Shown: in pieces, positions 5,505 through 25,496 of the stretch
Numbering within the stretch: the first letter of the stretch is position 1
How the letters are laid out: each line of letters begins with the position of its first letter
Source of the DNA: Patescibacteria group bacterium
GTDB lineage: Bacteria; Patescibacteriota; Patescibacteriia; UBA2591; UBA6264
Assembly: GCA_016784145.1 (NCBI GenBank)
Contig: JADHVF010000002.1
Span: 112,357 to 176,356, forward strand
Reading direction: 5' to 3'
DNA: 64,000 nt
The notes under the pieces: generated by a model
The model's database searches: none
The model's input: only the letters and a program-made list of their open reading frames with translations
What the model was told of the DNA's origin: nothing
Made by a program: the position numbers and the translations under genes

Positions 5505-6956
5505 ATGAAAATATTTTTATCTTTTATTGTAGGGGTTGCAATTACCTCTTTTTTGTTTATCCCAGCAATTGTTTATATTCCTTTATTTTTATTGATTTTA
5601 ATTATATTTGTGTTTATTAAACCAAAACAAGTATTGCCTGTTTTGGTTATTTTTTTATTTTTTATACTTGGCGTAATTCGTTATGAAATAAGCCTTCCAA
5701 AAATAGATAAAAATCATGTTAGTTTTTATAACAACCAAACAATTGTTTTTCAGGGAAAAGTTATTAAAGAGCCAATTAAGAGGATTGATAAATTAAAATT
5801 AATTATTGGCAATGTTTCTTTTCAGAAACATAAATTAAAAGGCAGAATATTAGTTAACGCGCCTGTTTTGTCTGATTACAAATACGGAGATATTTTAGAA
5901 GTTGAGTGTAATCTTAATCAATCTCAATCATCTGATAGATTTAATTATTATGAATGGCTTGCTAAAGATGATATTTATTTTAGTTGTTATTGGCCTAAAA
6001 TAAAAATTATTACCAGAAAGACAGGCAATTTTTTTTATGAAAAAATATTATTATTTAAATCTAATGCTAATAGTTTAATTAATAAAAATTTTTCTCAACC
6101 TCAGGGATCAATTTTGACCGCAATGTTGCTTGGCATTCGCCATCAAATACCACCCTTAACAAGAGATAATTTTAGTCAGGCAGGCATATCGCATATTCTG
6201 GCTATTTCAGGGCTTCACATTAGTATTATTTGTTTACTATTAATTACTTTTTTTGTAAACACATTGCATATTAGCCAAGCCAAATCTTTTTATTTAATGT
6301 GTTTTGCTATTTCTCTTTTTGTTTTATTGGTGGGAGCGCCAGTTTCAGCGGTCCGGGCAGCTATTATGGGGATTATTTTATCTTATGCAACCAAAATAGG
6401 GCGTCCTAAAAATTTTATGCAAACACTTGCTTTTGTTTGCGTTTTAATGCTACTGCTAAACCCAAGAGTTTTAAAATCTGATATAGGATTTCAATTATCT
6501 TTTATGGCTGTTTTAGGCATAGGAATGTTTAGAGATTATTTTAATCATATTTTTAGTCAAGTTCCAAACAACAATAAATTTCCATTAAGGTATTATTTAT
6601 CTATTACTTTGTCAGCTCAAATTTTTGTTTTACCATTAGTTTTGTATTGGTTTGGAAGCTTGTCTTTAATATCTTTATTATCTAATATTTTAATTTTGCC
6701 TTTATTATCATTTTTAATGATATTTGGTTTTCTTTTTATTTTTTTAGGATTGATTTTTCCTTGGTTGGTAAATTTTTTGTTATGGCCTGTATGGATATTA
6801 TTGACTTATGTTGTTTTAATAGCTAAAATTGGAGCAAATATTCCATATTTATCGTTTTATATCAAAGATTTTTCGTTTTTGGGAGTAATTGGGTTGTATG
6901 TCTTGATATTAATTTGGTTTTTTAAAATTAAAGGAATAACAAATCATAAATTATGA
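5505..6956 (+). CDS. comEC: ComEC/Rec2 competence-channel protein, membrane (competence) domain only
   Basis: Polytopic membrane protein with the ComEC signature AGISHILAISGLHISII. An N-terminal OB-like soluble segment lies between TM helices. There is no MBL domain in this ORF. Confidence 0.8.
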   Translation: MKIFLSFIVGVAITSFLFIPAIVYIPLFLLILIIFVFIKPKQVLPVLVIFLFFILGVIRYEISLPKIDKNHVSFYNNQTIVFQGKVIKEPIKRIDKLKLIIGNVSFQKHKLKGRILVNAPVLSDYKYGDILEVECNLNQSQSSDRFNYYEWLAKDDIYFSCYWPKIKIITRKTGNFFYEKILLFKSNANSLINKNFSQPQGSILTAMLLGIRHQIPPLTRDNFSQAGISHILAISGLHISIICLLLITFFVNTLHISQAKSFYLMCFAISLFVLLVGAPVSAVRAAIMGIILSYATKIGRPKNFMQTLAFVCVLMLLLNPRVLKSDIGFQLSFMAVLGIGMFRDYFNHIFSQVPNNNKFPLRYYLSITLSAQIFVLPLVLYWFGSLSLISLLSNILILPLLSFLMIFGFLFIFLGLIFPWLVNFLLWPVWILLTYVVLIAKIGANIPYLSFYIKDFSFLGVIGLYVLILIWFFKIKGITNHKL

Positions 6957-6966
6957 GAAATTATCC

Positions 6967-7866
6967 ATGTTAAGTAAAGAAATTTTTTTTAAAAAAAGTA
7001 TTTTTATTATTGGAATATTATTTTTAATAAGCCTTATTTTTTTAGGATATATTTATTGGCTGGCTTGTTTAAATGATACTAATTTAAGAGTAATTTTTTT
7101 AGATATTGGACAGGGTGATGCTACTTTAATTCAAACGCCAGCTCATCAAAATATCTTAATTGATGGTGGTCCTGATATAAATATTATTAATAAATTAGAC
7201 AAGTATATCTCTTTTGACAACAGAATTATAGATATAATTATTTTAACTCATACAGGACTAGATCACTTAACAGGATTAGTGGAGGTTTTAGAGCGATATC
7301 CAGTTAAGCAAATAATTAGCAATGGGCTTGACGACTCAAAGCCACTTGTTTATAAGTGGCAAAATCTTATTAAGAAAAAAAATATTCCACACAGAATTAT
7401 TGATGCTCCTATAGATATTAAGGTAGAAGAAAATGTTTTAATGAAATTTTTTTGGCCTCAGCAATCATTGGTTAAGGATTTTAAAGCAGATGATAATTTT
7501 ACCTCTATTGTAATGAAATTAGTTTATAAAAATAATAGTTTTTTGTTTACAGGAGATGCTACTAAAGAAACAGAAGCAGAGTTGATTAACAATGATATTG
7601 ATTTGTCTAGCGATGTTTTTAAGGCAGGCCATCACGGCTCAAAATATTCTTCAACCATGGATTTTTTAAAAAAAATTAATCCAAGTTATGGAGTTATTTC
7701 ATCAGGAGAAAATCAGTTTGGTCATCCTAGTTTGCGGGTTTTAAAAAATTTAACTCAATTAATACCATATGATAAAATTTTTAGAACAGATAAAAATGGG
7801 GATATAATATTTAAAACTAATGGGAATAATTTAGTTTTTCAATTACAAGATTCTTGGTTTCAATAA
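6967..7866 (+). CDS. Membrane-anchored metallo-beta-lactamase-fold protein (the ComEC C-terminal MBL domain encoded as a separate ORF)
   Basis: One N-terminal TM helix. MBL motifs FLDIGQGDATLIQTP and ILTHTGLDHLTGL (HxHxDH-like), plus KAGHHGSKYS, are typical of the ComEC C-terminal domain. It begins 10 nt after the comEC stop, in a different frame. Confidence 0.75.
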   Translation: MLSKEIFFKKSIFIIGILFLISLIFLGYIYWLACLNDTNLRVIFLDIGQGDATLIQTPAHQNILIDGGPDINIINKLDKYISFDNRIIDIIILTHTGLDHLTGLVEVLERYPVKQIISNGLDDSKPLVYKWQNLIKKKNIPHRIIDAPIDIKVEENVLMKFFWPQQSLVKDFKADDNFTSIVMKLVYKNNSFLFTGDATKETEAELINNDIDLSSDVFKAGHHGSKYSSTMDFLKKINPSYGVISSGENQFGHPSLRVLKNLTQLIPYDKIFRTDKNGDIIFKTNGNNLVFQLQDSWFQ

Positions 7867-8034: not shown

Positions 8035-9240
8035 ATGGCAGCTAAAGAAAAATTCGAAAGAACAAAGCCGCATTTAAATGTTGGTACAATTGGTCATGTT
8101 GACCATGGCAAAACAGCTTTAACAGCGGCAATATTAAAAGTTTTAACAGCTTCTGGAGGAAAGGCTGAAACAAGAAGTGTTGATGAAATTGACAATGCTC
8201 CTGAAGAAAGAAGTAGAGGAATTACAATTTCGTTAGCTCATGTCGAGTATGAAACAGACAAAAGACATTATGCTCACATTGATTGTCCAGGACATGCTGA
8301 CTATGTTAAAAACATGGTTACTGGTGCAGCTCAAATGGATGGAGCTATTTTGGTTATTTCAGCCACTGATGGTCCAATGCCTCAAACAAGAGAGCATATC
8401 TTGCTGGCTAGACAAGTTGGAGTACCATCTATTGTCGTGTTTTTAAACAAGACAGACCAAGTTGAAGACAAAGAGTTGATTGAACTTGTTAAAGAAGAAG
8501 TTAAAGACATTCTTAAAAAGTATGAATTTCCAGGAGATGAGACCCCTATTATTGAAGGCTCGGCTACTAAAGCAATAGAATGTGGTTGTGGAAAAACAGA
8601 TTGCGAGCATTGTGGACCAATCTTAAAATTGCTTGATTCCCTTGATTCATATATTCCAGAACCAAAAAGAGATACAGAGAAACCATTTTTAATGCCAATT
8701 GAAGATATTTTTTCAATTGAAGGCAGGGGAACAGTTGTTACTGGAAAAATTGAAAAAGGAATTGTTAAATTAAATGATGAGATTGAAATTGTAGGATTAA
8801 GACCAACAACTAAAACAATTGTTACGGGCATAGAAATGTTTAGGAAGTCATTAGAAGAAGGGTTTGCTGGAGATAATGCAGGTATTCTTTTAAGAGGAAC
8901 TAAAAAAACAGACATTGAAAGAGGGCAAGTAATTGCTAAGCCAGGGACTGTTACTCCTCATACAGAATTTGATTGTCAGGTTTATATTTTATCCAAAGAA
9001 GAAGGGGGCAGACATACCCCATTTTTGGCTGGGTATAAGCCCCAGTTTTATATTAGAACAACTGATGTTACTGGCGAAGCGTTTTTACCAGAAGGAACTG
9101 AAATGGCTATGCCAGGGGATACATTAGACCTTAAGGTTAAACTCTATAAACCAATTGCACTTGAAGAAAAGCAAAGATTTGCAATTAGAGAAGGTGGGAG
9201 AACAGTTGGAGCAGGAGTTGTAACAAAGATAACCAAGTAA
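8035..9240 (+). CDS. tuf: Translation elongation factor Tu
   Basis: [16 protein letters not shown] and NKTD GTPase motifs with full three-domain conservation. It carries an unusual Cys4 insertion in domain I (see findings). Confidence 0.97.
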
Positions 9241-9298: not shown

Positions 9299-9664
9299 AT
9301 GAAAAATAAAAGTAAGCAAAAAGACAAAATTGTTGCTAAAAAATTAGACAAGAAAGAATATAAACCAAAGATTCGTATCAAGGTCAAATCATATGACCAT
9401 AGAATTATAGATGAAGCAATTAAAAACATTATTGAATCTTTGAAGCATTTAGATGCTAAGATTATTGGCCCAATTTTTCTTCCAACTGAAAAAAGAAAAT
9501 ATACTGTTTTAAGGTCTTCTTTTGTTCATAAAGATTCAAGAGATCAATATGAAAAAAGAACCCACAAAAGGCTAATTGATATTATTGATTTTAACCCAAA
9601 AGTAATAGAAAAGCTGACAGGGTTAGATTTGCCTGCTGGAGTAGATATTGAAATAAAAATGTAG
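9299..9664 (+). CDS. rpsJ: 30S ribosomal protein S10 (uS10), with a roughly 20-aa Lys-rich N-terminal extension
   Basis: The core IRIKVKSYDHRIIDEAIKNI...RSSFVHKDSRDQYE...LIDIIDFNPKVIEKL matches uS10. Confidence 0.93.
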   Translation: MKNKSKQKDKIVAKKLDKKEYKPKIRIKVKSYDHRIIDEAIKNIIESLKHLDAKIIGPIFLPTEKRKYTVLRSSFVHKDSRDQYEKRTHKRLIDIIDFNPKVIEKLTGLDLPAGVDIEIKM

Positions 9665-16134: not shown

Positions 16135-16320
16135 ATGGCTACTAAAGCGCAAATAATTAAATCAATCAAGAAACCAAAATATTCCAGCAGGCTTGTTCGT
16201 CGTTGTTGGAGATGCGGAAGGAGGCATGGATATATGAGGGAGTTCGCCCTTTGCCGTATTTGTTTTAGAGAATTAGTAAATAAAGGAGTAATTCCAGGAA
16301 TAAGAAAATCATCTTGGTAA
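16135..16320 (+). CDS. rpsN: 30S ribosomal protein S14, type Z (zinc-binding)
   Basis: 61 aa with CWRCGRRHGYMREFALCRICFRE (Cys4). Confidence 0.95.
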   Translation: MATKAQIIKSIKKPKYSSRLVRRCWRCGRRHGYMREFALCRICFRELVNKGVIPGIRKSSW

Positions 16321-22269: not shown

Positions 22270-23715
22270 ATGACAGAAAAACAAGAACAAATAATTTTTT
22301 TTGGTAAGACAAATTATAGAGATATAAATAAAAAGTTTGGTATTAAAAAAATTGATAGAACACGTCATATGTATCTAATAGGCAAAACAGGAACAGGGAA
22401 ATCAACGGTGTTAGAAAATATGATTTATCAAGATATTCAAATGGGGAATGGAGTAGGTGTTGTTGACCCTCATGGAGATTTGGCTGAAAGAGTGCTTGAT
22501 TTTGTGCCGGGTTCAAGAATTAATGATGTTGTTTATTTTAATCCGTCTGATATTGAATATCCATTTGCTTTTAATGTTCTAGAGAGAGTAGGAGAGGAAC
22601 ATCGTCATTTGATTGCTTCGGGATTGGTTGGTGTTTTTAAAAAAATATGGGCTGATTCATGGGGGCCAAGGTTAGAATATGTTTTAAGAAATGCTGTTTT
22701 AGCGCTGTTAGAATATCCAGGCAGTACGCTACTGGGAATTATGAGAATATTGGTTGATAAGGATTTTAGAGAAAAAGTTGTATCCAGATTAACAGACCCG
22801 GTTGTTAAGTCATTTTGGACTAATGAATATCCAAGATATCCAGAAAAAATAAGAACAGAAGCAATTTTGCCTATTCAAAATAAAGTCGGGCAATTTTTAT
22901 CTACTTCATTAATAAGGAACATTGTTGGACAGGTGAAATCAAAGATAAATTTAAGAGAAATAATGGATGAAAAAAAAATATTAATAATGAATTTGTCAAA
23001 AGGGAGAATTGGGGAAGATGCCTCGGCTTTACTAGGAGCAATGATGATTACAAAGATTCAATTAGCAGCCATGAGTAGAGTTGATATTTTAGAAAAAGAA
23101 AGGAAAAATTTTTATCTTTATGTAGATGAATTTCAAAATTTTGTAACAGAAGCATTTGCTGACATTCTCTCAGAGGCAAGAAAATATCATTTAAATTTGA
23201 TTATCGCACATCAATATATTGGTCAATTGATTGCTGAACAAACAAGCAAGGTAAGAGATGCAGTTTTTGGAAATGTGGGCACAATTGTATCTTTTAGGAT
23301 AGGAGCAGAAGACGCAGTGTTTTTGTCTAGAGAGTTTTTGCCTAGATTTGAAGAAACTGACTTAGTTGATTTGGATAAATACAATACATATATAAAATTA
23401 ATGATTGACGGGATTACATCAGAGCCATTTTCAGCAATTACATTGCCTCCTTTAGCAGAGTCAAAAGGGAATAGTGACAAGGTTATTGCCCTTTCAAGAG
23501 AAAGATATGCTGAGCCGAGAAAAATTGTTGAAGACAAAATAGCTCGCTGGAGTGGAACAGATGAACAAGGACAAGCTCCTAGAGATGAAAGAGTAATTAA
23601 GTATGAGTCAAAGTGTAATAAGTGCAAGGTTGATGTTTTTGTTCCTTTTGTCCCAGATGGAGTTCGTCCAGTGTATTGTAAAAAATGTTTAAAAGAAACC
23701 AAAAAAACCAAATAA
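22270..23715 (+). CDS. Cytoplasmic TraD/TrwB/VirD4-family (type IV coupling-protein-like) P-loop ATPase with a C-terminal CxxC...CxxC zinc ribbon
   Basis: Walker A HMYLIGKTGTGKST, then VVDPHGDL and YFNP (TrwB/VirD4-like motifs), Walker B LYVDEFQNF, and the C-terminus CNKCKVDVFVPFVPDGVRPVYCKKC. No N-terminal TM segment. Confidence 0.6.
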   Translation: MTEKQEQIIFFGKTNYRDINKKFGIKKIDRTRHMYLIGKTGTGKSTVLENMIYQDIQMGNGVGVVDPHGDLAERVLDFVPGSRINDVVYFNPSDIEYPFAFNVLERVGEEHRHLIASGLVGVFKKIWADSWGPRLEYVLRNAVLALLEYPGSTLLGIMRILVDKDFREKVVSRLTDPVVKSFWTNEYPRYPEKIRTEAILPIQNKVGQFLSTSLIRNIVGQVKSKINLREIMDEKKILIMNLSKGRIGEDASALLGAMMITKIQLAAMSRVDILEKERKNFYLYVDEFQNFVTEAFADILSEARKYHLNLIIAHQYIGQLIAEQTSKVRDAVFGNVGTIVSFRIGAEDAVFLSREFLPRFEETDLVDLDKYNTYIKLMIDGITSEPFSAITLPPLAESKGNSDKVIALSRERYAEPRKIVEDKIARWSGTDEQGQAPRDERVIKYESKCNKCKVDVFVPFVPDGVRPVYCKKCLKETKKTK

Positions 23716-25496
23716 TGAAATCTCAAGAGATACGAAAACAATTTTTATTATTTTTTAAAAACAAAGAGCATAAAGTGGTTTCTTCTGCTTCGTTAGTTCC
23801 AGCAGACCCTACTGCTCTTTTTACTTCTGCAGGCATGCAGCAATTTATTCCTTATTTAAGTGGTCAGATTGCCTCTCCATACAAAAGAGCTTGCTCTATT
23901 CAAAAATGTTTTAGAACATCTGACATTGATGAAGTTGGTGATGATTTTCACCATACTTTTTTTGAGATGTTAGGAAATTGGTCTTTTAATGATTATTTTA
24001 AAGAGGAAATTATTAATTGGTCATTAGAATTTTTAACAGAGCATCTTAATTTAAGCAAAGATAGATTGTGGGTCTCAGTTTTCAAAGGAACACCAGAGGT
24101 TTTAAAAGATAAACAAGCAATTGATATTTGGGAGAAAGCTGGTATTGCTAAAAATAAAATTAAACAATTGGGAATGAAGGATAATTTTTGGGGACCAGTA
24201 ACTCAAACAGGGCCTTGTGGTCCTTGTTCAGAAATCTATTATGATAAAGGAGAAAATTTCAAGACTCAAACATGTGATACAAAAAAATGCGGATTAAATT
24301 GTAAATGTGGCAGATTTGTAGAAATATGGAATTTAGTTTTTATGCAATATAATAAAACAAGTGATAAAACTTTTCTTAAATTGCCAGGAAAAAATATTGA
24401 TACAGGGGCTGGGCTAGAAAGAATTGCATCAATTATTCAAAATAAAAAGACAAATTACGAGACAGATTTATTTATGCCAATAATTGACACTATTAATAAT
24501 TTAGGCAATTTTGAATTAAATAAAATTACTAATAAAGCTTCAAGAATAATTGCTGATCATTTAAGAGCAACTTGTTTTTTAATATCAGATGGGGTTTTGC
24601 CATCAAAAGAAGATAGGGGGTATGTGTTAAGAAAATTAATTAGAAGAACAATGAGACATTCAAGAAACCTTAATACAGACAATGATTTTTTAATTAATAT
24701 ATCAACCAAAATAATAGATGTTTACAAGGAATCGTATCCAGAATTATTGCAAAATAAAAATAATATTTTAACCATTATTCAAACAGAGCAAGAAAAATTT
24801 TCCAAAACATTAGCACAAGGCTTAAAAAAATTTAATCAACTGGCATTTAATATTAAAAAAATAAATCAAAAGGTTATTAATGGAAAAGATATTTTTCATC
24901 TATACGACACTTATGGATTTCCTTTTGAATTAACACAAGAAATGGCAGTAGAACAGGGGCTAAAAGTAAGTAAAAGTGATTTTAATAAAGAATTTGTTAA
25001 ACATAAGCAAATATCTCGAGTAGGGGCAATTAAGAAATTTGGAGGAGTCGGGCAATGGGGGAAGAAAGTTGCTGCTCTTCATACAGCCACTCATTTATTG
25101 CATCAGGCATTAAGGGATGTTTTAGGGGAACATGTTCAACAGGCAGGATCAGACTTAACTCTTGAAAGATTAAGATTTGACTTTACTCATGCTAGCAAAT
25201 TGACACCAGAAAAAATAGCTAAGATTGAAAATATTGTTAATGCTAAAATTAAAAAAGGAATAAGGATATGTATAGAAAATATGTCATATGATGATGCTAT
25301 TAAGTTGGGTGCCTTGGCTTTTTTTAAGGAAAAATATCCTAAGCAAGTAAGTGTTTATTCAGTTGGAAATTATTCAAAAGAAGTTTGTGCTGGGCCACAT
25401 GTTAAAAACACTAAAGAAATTGGGACATTTAAGATTATAAAAGAAACATCGTCAGGAGCAGGAATTAGAAGAATAAAAGCAATTATACAAAATTAA
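23715..25496 (+). CDS. alaS: Alanine--tRNA ligase, compact form (catalytic, tRNA-recognition and editing-core domains; no C-terminal C-Ala domain)
   Basis: MKSQEIRKQFL.FF...H..V.S.SLVP.DPTALFT.AGM.QF, class II aaRS motifs, and the editing HxxxH (HTATHLLHQALRDVLGEHV). The ATG overlaps the upstream stop (TAATG). Confidence 0.9.
   Translation: MKSQEIRKQFLLFFKNKEHKVVSSASLVPADPTALFTSAGMQQFIPYLSGQIASPYKRACSIQKCFRTSDIDEVGDDFHHTFFEMLGNWSFNDYFKEEIINWSLEFLTEHLNLSKDRLWVSVFKGTPEVLKDKQAIDIWEKAGIAKNKIKQLGMKDNFWGPVTQTGPCGPCSEIYYDKGENFKTQTCDTKKCGLNCKCGRFVEIWNLVFMQYNKTSDKTFLKLPGKNIDTGAGLERIASIIQNKKTNYETDLFMPIIDTINNLGNFELNKITNKASRIIADHLRATCFLISDGVLPSKEDRGYVLRKLIRRTMRHSRNLNTDNDFLINISTKIIDVYKESYPELLQNKNNILTIIQTEQEKFSKTLAQGLKKFNQLAFNIKKINQKVINGKDIFHLYDTYGFPFELTQEMAVEQGLKVSKSDFNKEFVKHKQISRVGAIKKFGGVGQWGKKVAALHTATHLLHQALRDVLGEHVQQAGSDLTLERLRFDFTHASKLTPEKIAKIENIVNAKIKKGIRICIENMSYDDAIKLGALAFFKEKYPKQVSVYSVGNYSKEVCAGPHVKNTKEIGTFKIIKETSSGAGIRRIKAIIQN

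What the first reader, a model, noticed from the sequence alone, without database searches (positions are those of the whole stretch)
8560..8640. Cys4 (CxC-x4-CxxC) insertion in domain I of EF-Tu
Where E. coli EF-Tu has [28 protein letters not shown], this protein has [33 protein letters not shown]. That is a 5-residue-longer segment with four closely spaced cysteines and a histidine, which looks like a small metal-binding knuckle. It is not a general property of EF-Tu.
Basis: seen in the sequence. Interest (0 to 1): 0.5.

Follow-up and report, generated by a model that had tools for sequence, protein, structure and literature searches.

The report
Four-cysteine loop in EF-Tu
The translation factor EF-Tu encoded here has a short, strictly conserved four-cysteine loop that probably holds a zinc ion; the loop is real but is shared by EF-Tu of at least 15 bacterial phyla, and no solved structure or paper that I could find describes it.

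Summary
The tuf gene (8035-9240, +) encodes a full-length EF-Tu whose loop after the G5 guanine-binding motif reads E-C183-G-C185-G-K-T-D-C190-E-H-C193-G. This loop is 5 residues longer than in E. coli.

The loop is not an artefact. Four cysteines are present in 115 of the 120 closest relatives (114 with the exact spacing). They are also present in 119 of 120 relatives of a Clostridia-type EF-Tu.

It is not lineage-specific. All 120 matches lie at the same EF-Tu site, in at least 15 phyla and including cultured species.

- Loss is mostly all-or-none, and cysteine-free forms nest inside cysteine-bearing Patescibacteria.
- The histidine is not conserved.
- The loop sits where Thermus EF-Tu has its 10-residue insert.
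- None of the PDB EF-Tu sequences examined (all 60 to 62 listed rows of three searches) has the motif.
- Ten literature searches found no description.

Best reading: a structural Zn(Cys)4 staple, a "C+" form of EF-Tu analogous to the C+/C- ribosomal proteins. AlphaFold confidence did not distinguish the C+ form from a C- relative.

The parts
8035..9240 (+). tuf gene, EF-Tu, 401 aa, full length, followed by rpsJ (S10) at 9299
   Evidence: ORF. TIGR00485 686.5 bits and PRK12735 704.6 bits. 66-70% identity to PDB EF-Tus. The AF2 model has TM 0.92 to the Thermus EF-Tu GTP form 1exm.
8092..8115 (+). G1/P-loop, G20-H-V-D-H-G-K-T27
   Evidence: Read from the translation. These columns are invariant in alignment A1.
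8281..8295 (+). G3, D83-C-P-G-H87. It includes C84, the conserved Cys equivalent to E. coli C81 and Synechocystis C82.
   Evidence: Translation. D83, P85, G86 and H87 are invariant and C84 is at least 90% conserved.
8446..8457 (+). G4, N138-K-T-D141
   Evidence: Translation. K139 and D141 are invariant.
8560..8568 (+). G5 guanine-recognition motif, S176-A-T178 (usually S-A-L)
   Evidence: Translation. S176 is invariant. The motif lies 7 residues upstream of the first Cys.
8581..8616 (+). Four-cysteine loop C183-G-C185-G-K187-T-D189-C190-E-H-C193-G194, the predicted Zn(Cys)4 knuckle
   Evidence: Sequence. The consensus is E-C-G-C-G-K-x-[DE]-C-x-x-C-G. The AF2 model places it as a coil (184-192) between helices 177-183 and 193-206. 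It aligns to the site of the Thermus 10-aa insert.
8611..8652 (+). Last helix of the G domain (residues 193-206). It starts at C193 and leads to the linker into domain II.
   Evidence: DSSP on the AF2 model.
16135..16320 (+). rpsN, short zinc-type (C+) ribosomal protein S14 with CxxC...CxxC. Context only: this genome also keeps another cysteine-bearing translation protein.
   Evidence: Translation MATKAQ...CWRCGRRHGYMREFALCRIC.... The assignment to S14 rests on its position in the spc operon and on the known short S14 type (my knowledge).

Best explanation
This is an ordinary, functional EF-Tu of a Patescibacteria (CPR) bacterium. It belongs to a widespread and old 'C+' variant of the factor.

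In this variant, the surface loop that follows the G5 guanine-binding motif and precedes the last helix of the G domain is a 12-residue mini-knuckle, C-G-C-G-K-x-[D/E]-C-x-x-C-G. I infer the following steps:
- The four thiolates (C183, C185, C190, C193) bind one metal ion tetrahedrally, most likely Zn2+.
- The metal staples the end of the short helix 177-183 to the start of helix 193-206.
- This bracing replaces the packing that other EF-Tus achieve with a shorter loop (E. coli) or a longer cysteine-free loop (Thermus).
- The role is structural: stability of the G5 and C-terminal-helix region of the G domain. It is not catalytic.
- The site has been lost repeatedly in evolution, as zinc ribbons have been lost in ribosomal proteins.

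Shown: the sequence, its position, conservation, phylogenetic spread and pattern of loss. Inferred: metal binding, which metal, the stabilising role, and ancient origin.
For: 1. The gene is intact and orthologous EF-Tu with all G motifs.
2. The four Cys are conserved in 114 of 120 Patescibacteria relatives at 75-100% identity. One further relative (P0096) keeps four Cys with the first pair shifted to C-x2-C.
3. They are also conserved in 119 of 120 relatives of a Carboxydocellales EF-Tu, including Heliomicrobium modesticaldum, Desulforamulus ruminis, Desulfotomaculum nigrificans, Carboxydocella and Thermincola.
All 120 matches lie in EF-Tu at the same site. By my calculation about 0.3 chance matches are expected: 42 bits of pattern against 1.2e12 positions.
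5. Cys occupancy is bimodal. Among the 120 closest relatives there are 115 with four Cys, one with three, and four with 0 to 2.
6. In an NJ tree the cysteine-poor forms P0094/P0101 and P0113/P0115 nest inside C+ Patescibacteria.
7. Gly follows C1, C2 and C4, giving the C-x-x-C-G knuckle signature. K187 and [D/E]189 are near-invariant, and Cys codons vary synonymously.
8. C+ EF-Tus cluster by phylum. They are 63-72% identical to the window protein, no closer than cysteine-free PDB EF-Tus at 63-70%. This argues against a recently spread allele.
9. The motif occurs in aerobes or facultative organisms (Sulfobacillus, Leptospiraceae, Gemmatimonadota, Thermoleophilia). That favours an oxygen-stable metal such as zinc.
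10. From my own knowledge, C-x-C plus C-x-x-C ligand sets bind zinc in E. coli L31 and in the RNA polymerase beta' N-terminal zinc site.
Against: - No metal has been measured and no coordinates were available, so convergence of the four sulfurs is unverified.
- AF2 confidence in the loop (pLDDT 96-98) is equally high in the cysteine-free relative P0113 (95-98). It therefore says nothing about a metal site.
- The spacer between C185 and C190 is only 4 residues. I found no solved structure with this exact spacing.
- Several lineages do well without the cysteines, so any contribution to function is dispensable or replaceable.
- The tree is an unbootstrapped NJ tree. It lacks cysteine-free EF-Tus from the other phyla, so 'ancient and vertically inherited' is only the most parsimonious reading.
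Confidence: 0.6

Rival explanations
1. Redox or zinc-release switch. The Cys4 centre binds zinc in the reduced cell. Oxidants release the zinc and form disulfides, which loosens the G5 and last-helix region and throttles EF-Tu. This would act as an oxidative-stress brake on translation, in the manner of the Hsp33 zinc centre.
For: - Many carriers are anaerobes or microaerophiles: Dehalococcoidia, Peptococcaceae, heliobacteria, sulfate reducers, Scalindua and CPR.
- EF-Tu is already known to be ROS-sensitive through a single conserved Cys in cyanobacteria and chloroplasts (title and abstract of PMC10212517, listed).
- The knuckle lies only 7 residues after G5.
Against: - The motif also occurs in aerobic or facultative lineages such as Sulfobacillus, Leptospiraceae, Gemmatimonadota and Thermoleophilia.
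- No partner reductase or regulator is linked to tuf in the window.
- Nothing here distinguishes a regulatory site from a purely structural one.
Confidence: 0.15
2. An iron site. The four cysteines bind Fe (rubredoxin-like Fe(Cys)4) or help ligate an Fe-S cluster. This would link translation to iron or redox status.
For: The C-x-x-C-G knuckle with a following Gly is also the rubredoxin signature (my knowledge). The motif is enriched in anaerobes.
Against: - All four ligands lie within 11 residues on an exposed surface loop.
- The motif is present in aerobes.
- There is no resemblance to the C-x2-C-x2-C-x3-C ferredoxin spacing.
- EF-Tu is very abundant (my knowledge), so an iron site would be costly and reactive with oxygen.
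Confidence: 0.08
3. No metal. The cysteine-rich loop is conserved for another reason, such as a docking surface for a partner (EF-Ts, the L7/L12 stalk, a toxin or a kinase) or a pair of disulfides.
For: - K187 and [D/E]189 are as conserved as the cysteines, so the loop carries information beyond the four ligands.
- The site is a hypervariable surface loop across EF-Tus. The regex-defined segment ranges from 31 to 44 residues among 137 cluster representatives.
Against: - Four cysteines that are kept or lost together, with one variant that moves the first pair but still keeps four (P0096), is the classic behaviour of a metal site.
- Cytoplasmic disulfides are unlikely in these organisms.
- From my knowledge of the complexes, the known EF-Ts, tRNA and ribosome contact surfaces of EF-Tu do not include this loop. 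This was not tested here.
Confidence: 0.07
4. Assembly or sequencing artefact, or a chance cluster of cysteines peculiar to this contig.
For: None found.
Against: An identical protein occurs on 4 contigs from NCBI and ENA. The motif is present in hundreds of independent genomes.
Confidence: 0.01

Closest known systems
Thermus / Thermotoga-type EF-Tu with the 10-residue insertion in domain I (e.g. PDB 1exm, 1eft, 1ttt)
   Same: Same protein and same insertion point. Thermus residues 190-207 (RGENEWVDKIWELLDAID) align with KRECEWCGKIWELMDAVD of C+ EF-Tus, so C3 and C4 correspond to Thermus N and V. The window model superposes on 1exm with TM 0.92.
   Different: The Thermus loop is 5 residues longer than the C+ loop and has no cysteines, so it has no metal. 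The C+ loop has not been seen in any solved structure.
C+ / C- forms of bacterial ribosomal proteins (S14, S18, L28, L31, L32, L33, L36; Makarova, Ponomarev and Koonin 2001, recalled from memory)
   Same: Orthologous translation proteins exist with or without a Cys4 zinc site. The cysteines are lost together. Cysteine-free forms arise repeatedly inside cysteine-bearing clades. E. coli L31 uses the same C-x-C-G plus C-x-x-C ligand pattern (my knowledge). The window's own S14 is the C+ type.
   Different: EF-Tu is a GTPase, not a ribosomal protein. I saw no C+/C- paralogue pair in one genome: the Desulfotomaculum nigrificans entries and the Chloroflexia MAG each have two copies, both C+, and all three Carboxydocella thermautotrophica entries are C+. 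No Zur link was tested. Zinc binding is unproven for EF-Tu.
Zinc knuckle of the G domain of archaeal/eukaryotic initiation factor 2 gamma (e.g. PDB 2aho, 1kk0)
   Same: It is a Cys4 motif inserted in the G domain of a close structural relative of EF-Tu.
   Different: The location differs. In S. solfataricus aIF2-gamma the motif C-E-S-C-x12-C-K-S-C lies between switch 1 and G3. Here it lies after G5. The spacing also differs (two C-x2-C pairs 12 residues apart, versus C-x-C-x4-C-x2-C). The two are therefore analogous, not homologous.
Structural zinc in the LID of adenylate kinase of Gram-positive bacteria (C-x2-C-x16-C-x2-C), replaced by a hydrogen-bond network in E. coli (recalled from memory)
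   Same: A nucleotide-binding housekeeping enzyme in which a Cys4 zinc staple is present in some lineages and is replaced by non-metal packing in others without loss of function.
   Different: It is a different fold element and has much longer spacing. In adenylate kinase the metal has been demonstrated experimentally.

Membership tests
Elongation factor Tu (TIGR00485 / PRK12735) | Whole-protein score above the curated cut-off | tested here: met
   TIGR00485 scores 686.5 bits against a cut-off of 522.4. PRK12735 scores 704.6 against 479.
Elongation factor Tu (TIGR00485 / PRK12735) | G1-G5 motifs and the three-domain architecture | tested here: met
   [17 protein letters not shown] and SAT are present. 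The closest relatives carry Pfam GTP_EFTU, D2 and D3. The AF2 model matches the closed GTP form with TM 0.92.
Structural Zn(Cys)4 knuckle | Four Cys ligands arranged in two closely spaced pairs | tested here: met
   C183-x-C185 and C190-x2-C193.
Structural Zn(Cys)4 knuckle | All four ligands conserved across homologues that carry the loop, and lost together | tested here: met
   The motif is present in 114/120, 119/120 and 120/120 sequences of the three sets. Cys counts are bimodal, 4 versus 0-2, with a single 3-Cys sequence.
Structural Zn(Cys)4 knuckle | Knuckle signature: small residue (Gly) after the second Cys of a pair | tested here: met
   C-G-C-G and C-x-x-C-G. Gly follows C2 in 114/114 and follows C4 in 112/114 Patescibacteria sequences.
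Structural Zn(Cys)4 knuckle | Four S-gamma atoms converge to tetrahedral geometry (S-S about 3.5-4 A) | not testable with these tools
   Structure prediction returns no coordinates, and none are stored in /data. Loop pLDDT of 96-98 is matched by the cysteine-free control P0113, so it is uninformative.
Structural Zn(Cys)4 knuckle | Stoichiometric metal in the protein | not testable with these tools
   This needs ICP-MS or PAR/PMPS assays on purified protein.
C+/C- dichotomy of translation proteins | Cysteine-free orthologues nested within cysteine-bearing clades (secondary loss) | tested here: met
   P0094/P0101 and P0113/P0115 sit inside C+ Patescibacteria in the NJ tree. Their loops have the same length as the C+ loop, or one residue more. 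The tree has no bootstrap support values.
C+/C- dichotomy of translation proteins | C- paralogue alongside a C+ copy in one genome, induced under zinc limitation (Zur) | tested here: inconclusive
   The few multi-copy cases seen are all C+. These are L003 and L015 from one MAG, and two D. nigrificans entries (P0384, P0389), each listed with a longest contig of 3,052,787 bases. No whole-genome survey or Zur-box search was possible.
e/aIF2-gamma G-domain zinc knuckle | Insertion between switch 1 and G3 (beta2-beta3 hairpin) | tested here: not met
   The aIF2-gamma Cys4 lies at residues about 59-77, before DAPGH. The EF-Tu Cys4 lies after G5 at residues 183-193.
Thermus-type domain I insertion | Extra residues between ALE and xEWxxKI at the start of the last G-domain helix | tested here: met
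   The alignment places both at the same site. The length and sequence of the insert differ: +5 with four Cys here, +10 without Cys in Thermus.

The most novel reading that the evidence does not exclude
The Cys4 knuckle is an ancestral feature of bacterial EF-Tu. It is found on both sides of the Terrabacteria/Gracilicutes split and was lost many times. It is also a working zinc-thiolate centre. That would make EF-Tu, the most abundant cytoplasmic protein, the largest single zinc pool in the organisms that keep it. It would also give them a built-in redox or zinc-sensitive throttle on translation elongation, comparable to but larger than the ribosomal C+ protein zinc reserve.
Probability: 0.15. 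Interest if true: 0.7.

Novelty: new variant of a known kind. Interest (0 to 1): 0.45.

Why it matters
EF-Tu is one of the most studied and most abundant bacterial proteins, yet none of the PDB EF-Tu sequences examined (about 60) carries this motif. The ten literature searches I could run found no description of it.

If the loop binds zinc, a large part of bacterial diversity would run translation with a metallo-EF-Tu. That part includes CPR, Dehalococcoidia, heliobacteria, sulfate-reducing Firmicutes, Thermodesulfobacteria and anammox Planctomycetes. This would bear on three things:
- cellular zinc budgets;
- the oxidative sensitivity of translation in anaerobes;
- ancestral reconstructions of EF-Tu. 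The resurrected ancestral EF-Tus in the PDB (6gfu, 6htw, 6i8r) and the node-168 reconstruction entry 5w75 all lack the cysteines.

The question is easy to test, because cultured carriers exist: Heliomicrobium modesticaldum, Desulforamulus ruminis, Desulfotomaculum nigrificans, Carboxydocella thermautotrophica, Sulfobacillus harzensis and Thermosulfurimonas dismutans.

For this particular window the feature is ordinary for its clade.

Tried and rejected
- A 50-aa query centred on the motif found nothing in the word-indexed protein search, because too few shared words were available.
- Foldseek against afdb50 was unavailable.
- AF2 loop confidence was considered as evidence for a metal site and rejected. 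The cysteine-free control P0113 scored the same: 95-98 against 96-98.
- The search of 50%-identity representatives returned mostly EF-Tu fragments. It gave only a rough picture: 5 of 137 parsable representatives have four or more Cys in the regex segment (4 with four, 1 with five), and loop length is highly variable. It is not a prevalence estimate.
- A PDB search with a 29-aa C+ consensus found no structural precedent with this spacing, only weak chance matches.
- Ten literature searches were run: 'ECGCGK', and EF-Tu combined with zinc, CXXC, zinc knuckle, four cysteine, Cys4, Zur or Thermus insertion. None gave a description of the motif, and none gave a citable statement on the Thermus insert or on zinc in aIF2-gamma. 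Those two points rest on my memory plus the sequence checks.
- Rejected: CPR-specific innovation. Histidine as a ligand. Homology to the aIF2-gamma knuckle. Recent horizontal spread of one C+ allele. Artefact.
- The antisense ORF at 8382..8915 inside tuf is a by-product of the coding frame.

Full report
**Observation**

The window carries a 401-aa ORF at 8035..9240 on the + strand. It scores 686.5 bits against the EF-Tu equivalog TIGR00485 (cut-off 522.4) and is 63-70% identical to EF-Tus in the PDB. Residues 176-208 read [33 protein letters not shown]. The four Cys codons are at 8581-8583, 8587-8589, 8602-8604 and 8611-8613.

HMMER alignments to PDB EF-Tus open a 5-residue gap exactly here.

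**Not an artefact, not chance**

The identical protein is on record from four contigs in NCBI and ENA, named 'elongation factor Tu [Patescibacteria group bacterium]'. Among the 120 closest relatives (75-100% identity):
- 114 keep C-x-C-x4-C-x2-C;
- one (P0096) keeps four cysteines with the first pair moved to C-x2-C;
- one has three cysteines;
- four have 0 to 2.

The consensus is S-A-L-K-A-L-E-C-G-C-G-K-x-[D/E]-C-x-x-C-G-[P/K]-I. Gly after C1, C2 and C4, together with K187 and D/E189, is almost as constant as the cysteines. The residue between C3 and C4 that is His in this window is H/W/N/K in Patescibacteria and mostly Trp elsewhere, so the histidine is incidental. TGT and TGC are mixed at each of the four positions across genomes.

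**Not lineage-specific**

I back-translated E-C-G-C-G-K-x2-C-x2-C-G and scanned one genome for each of 185,579 species. By my own calculation about 0.3 chance matches are expected (42 bits against 1.2e12 positions).

All 120 matches lie in EF-Tu at the same position, flanked by ...PGD..P...SALKAL and ...D.YIP.P.R..DKPFLM. The record titles include:
- 46 Dehalococcoidia, plus other Chloroflexota;
- 20 Bacillota, among them Sulfobacillus, Caloramator, Syntrophomonadaceae, Negativicutes and Carboxydocellales;
- 'Deltaproteobacteria' and Desulfobacteraceae;
- Thermodesulfobacteria, including Thermosulfurimonas dismutans;
- Nitrospirae, Planctomycetota including Scalindua, Leptospirales, Gemmatimonadota, Armatimonadota, Thermoleophilia, Omnitrophota, WOR-3 and Coatesbacteria;
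- Saccharibacteria, Parcubacteria and Paceibacterota.

A second homologue search started from a Carboxydocellales EF-Tu. It found the motif in 119 of 120 nearest relatives. These include Heliomicrobium modesticaldum Ice1, several Heliobacterium species, Desulforamulus ruminis, Desulfotomaculum nigrificans, Carboxydocella thermautotrophica and Thermincola ferriacetica.

**Evolutionary pattern**

In an NJ tree of 91 full-length sequences the C+ EF-Tus group by phylum. Chloroflexota, Bacillota, Patescibacteria and Leptospirales each form their own cluster. The window protein is 63-72% identical to C+ EF-Tus of other phyla. That is the same range as to cysteine-free EF-Tus of E. coli, Thermus and others (63-70%).

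The motif therefore sits in deeply diverged, phylum-typical backbones, not in one recently transferred allele. Within Patescibacteria the cysteine-poor forms (P0094/P0101 and P0113/P0115) nest among C+ sequences. Their loops are the same length as the C+ loop, or one residue longer. This is what secondary loss by substitution looks like.

The tree has no bootstrap values, and cysteine-free sequences from the other phyla were not available. An ancient origin is therefore the parsimonious reading, not a demonstrated one.

**Position in the structure**

An AF2 model built on 66 aligned relatives has mean pLDDT 85 and superposes on the GTP form of Thermus EF-Tu with TM 0.92. DSSP on the model gives the G5 strand at 172-174, a helix at 177-183 ending at C183, a coil at 184-192 containing C185 and C190, and a helix at 193-206 starting at C193.

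The knuckle thus bridges the two helices that follow the guanine-recognition motif S176-A-T178. It sits at the start of the helix that leads into domain II.

Thermus EF-Tu residues 190-207 (RGENEWVDKIWELLDAID) align with KRECEWCGKIWELMDAVD of C+ proteins. The C+ loop therefore occupies the site of the well-known Thermus 10-residue insert, and C3 and C4 correspond to Thermus Asn and Val. This site is a hypervariable loop among EF-Tus in general.

**What could not be shown**

Model coordinates are not exposed, so the test 'do the four sulfurs converge' could not be run.

The loop is predicted with pLDDT 96-98. I ran a control on the cysteine-free relative P0113, and its loop scores 95-98. AlphaFold confidence therefore does not argue for or against a metal site. 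The only difference is a longer coil in the C+ form: 9 residues against 5.

None of the PDB EF-Tu sequences examined carries the motif. I checked the 60 to 62 rows listed in each of the two EF-Tu searches, the residue-level alignments they printed, and a separate search with a C+ consensus peptide.

Ten literature searches, including the literal string ECGCGK, found no description. The searchable library omits most subscription-journal papers, so a prior mention cannot be excluded.

**Mechanism**

The best-supported explanation (confidence about 0.6) is a structural Zn(Cys)4 staple. It rests on five points:
- four invariant cysteines in two pairs;
- the C-x-x-C-G knuckle signature;
- a largely all-or-none pattern of loss;
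- one lineage that repositions the first pair but keeps four ligands;
- presence in aerobic as well as anaerobic lineages, which favours zinc over iron.

C-x-C plus C-x-x-C ligand sets are known zinc binders in L31 and in RNA polymerase beta' (my knowledge). The staple would brace the G5 and last-helix region. Other EF-Tus solve the same problem with a shorter loop or with a longer cysteine-free loop.

The rivals are a redox or zinc-release switch (0.15), an iron site (0.08), a metal-free docking loop or disulfides (0.07) and an artefact (about 0.01).

**Comparison with known systems**

- Functionally it resembles the C+/C- dichotomy of ribosomal proteins and the zinc LID of Gram-positive adenylate kinase. 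The window's own S14 is the short C+ type.
- It is not homologous to the aIF2-gamma zinc knuckle. In the PDB sequences that motif lies between switch 1 and G3.
- It shares its insertion point, but not its sequence, with the Thermus insert.
- I saw no C+/C- tuf paralogue pair. The multi-copy cases are all C+.

**Verdict**

The finding is real and correctly described. For this window it is ordinary for the clade, and it is not a CPR innovation.

At the level of EF-Tu biology it is a widespread, conserved and apparently uncharacterised cysteine-bearing variant. I class it as a new variant of a known kind, with interest about 0.45. The decisive experiments, metal analysis and Cys-to-Ser mutants of EF-Tu from a cultured carrier, are straightforward.

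Noticed in passing
window 16135-16320 (+): Ribosomal protein S14 is the short 61-aa zinc-type (C+) form, with CWRC...CRIC. The genome therefore keeps cysteine-bearing forms of at least two translation proteins.
   Followed up: partly
window 5505-6956 and 6967-7866 (+): ComEC appears split into two adjacent ORFs directly upstream of tuf. The first carries DUF4131 and the Competence domain; the second is a separate metallo-beta-lactamase domain protein. tuf is not preceded by rpsL-rpsG-fusA here and runs straight into rpsJ and the S10 operon.
   Followed up: partly
window 22270-23715 (+): A TrwB/VirD4-like coupling-protein ATPase (TrwB_AAD_bind, TraG-D_C) carries a C-terminal treble-clef zinc finger (zf_Tbcl_2, CNKC...CKKC). 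It lies between an ORF I read by eye as an MraY-like glycosyltransferase (not scanned) and alaS.
   Followed up: no
window 1-64000: There are no tRNA genes and no Rfam family at gathering score anywhere in 64 kb. Not even ribosomal-protein leader RNAs were found, although the window holds the S10/spc operons and rpoB.
   Followed up: no
L111 (CAZQVF010000004.1, labelled uncultured Gammaproteobacteria): Its EF-Tu is 85% identical to the window protein and groups inside Patescibacteria in the tree. The taxonomic label of this MAG or contig is probably wrong.
   Followed up: partly
P0096 (Patescibacteria relative, 398 aa): This variant loop, KCLQ---CEKADCPDCQ, moves the first cysteine pair to C-x2-C and is 3 residues shorter, yet four cysteines are kept. 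It is sister to the cysteine-poor P0094/P0101 and may be an intermediate on the way to loss.
   Followed up: partly
L003 and L015 (one Chloroflexia MAG); P0384 and P0389 (Desulfotomaculum nigrificans); P0279, P0281 and P0285 (Carboxydocella thermautotrophica): All the multiple tuf entries seen for one organism are C+. The Chloroflexia MAG has two copies on different contigs, D. nigrificans has two entries each listed with a longest contig of 3,052,787 bases, and Carboxydocella thermautotrophica has three entries listed with longest contigs of two different lengths. No cysteine-free backup paralogue was seen in these cases.
   Followed up: partly
window 8382-8915 (-): A 177-aa antisense ORF lies entirely inside tuf. 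It is most likely a by-product of the coding frame and not a gene.
   Followed up: no
window 23685-25496 (+): An ORF that looks by eye like alanyl-tRNA synthetase is only 603 aa, shorter than the roughly 870 aa I recall for bacterial AlaRS, so it may lack the C-terminal domain. I did not run a family search on it.
   Followed up: no
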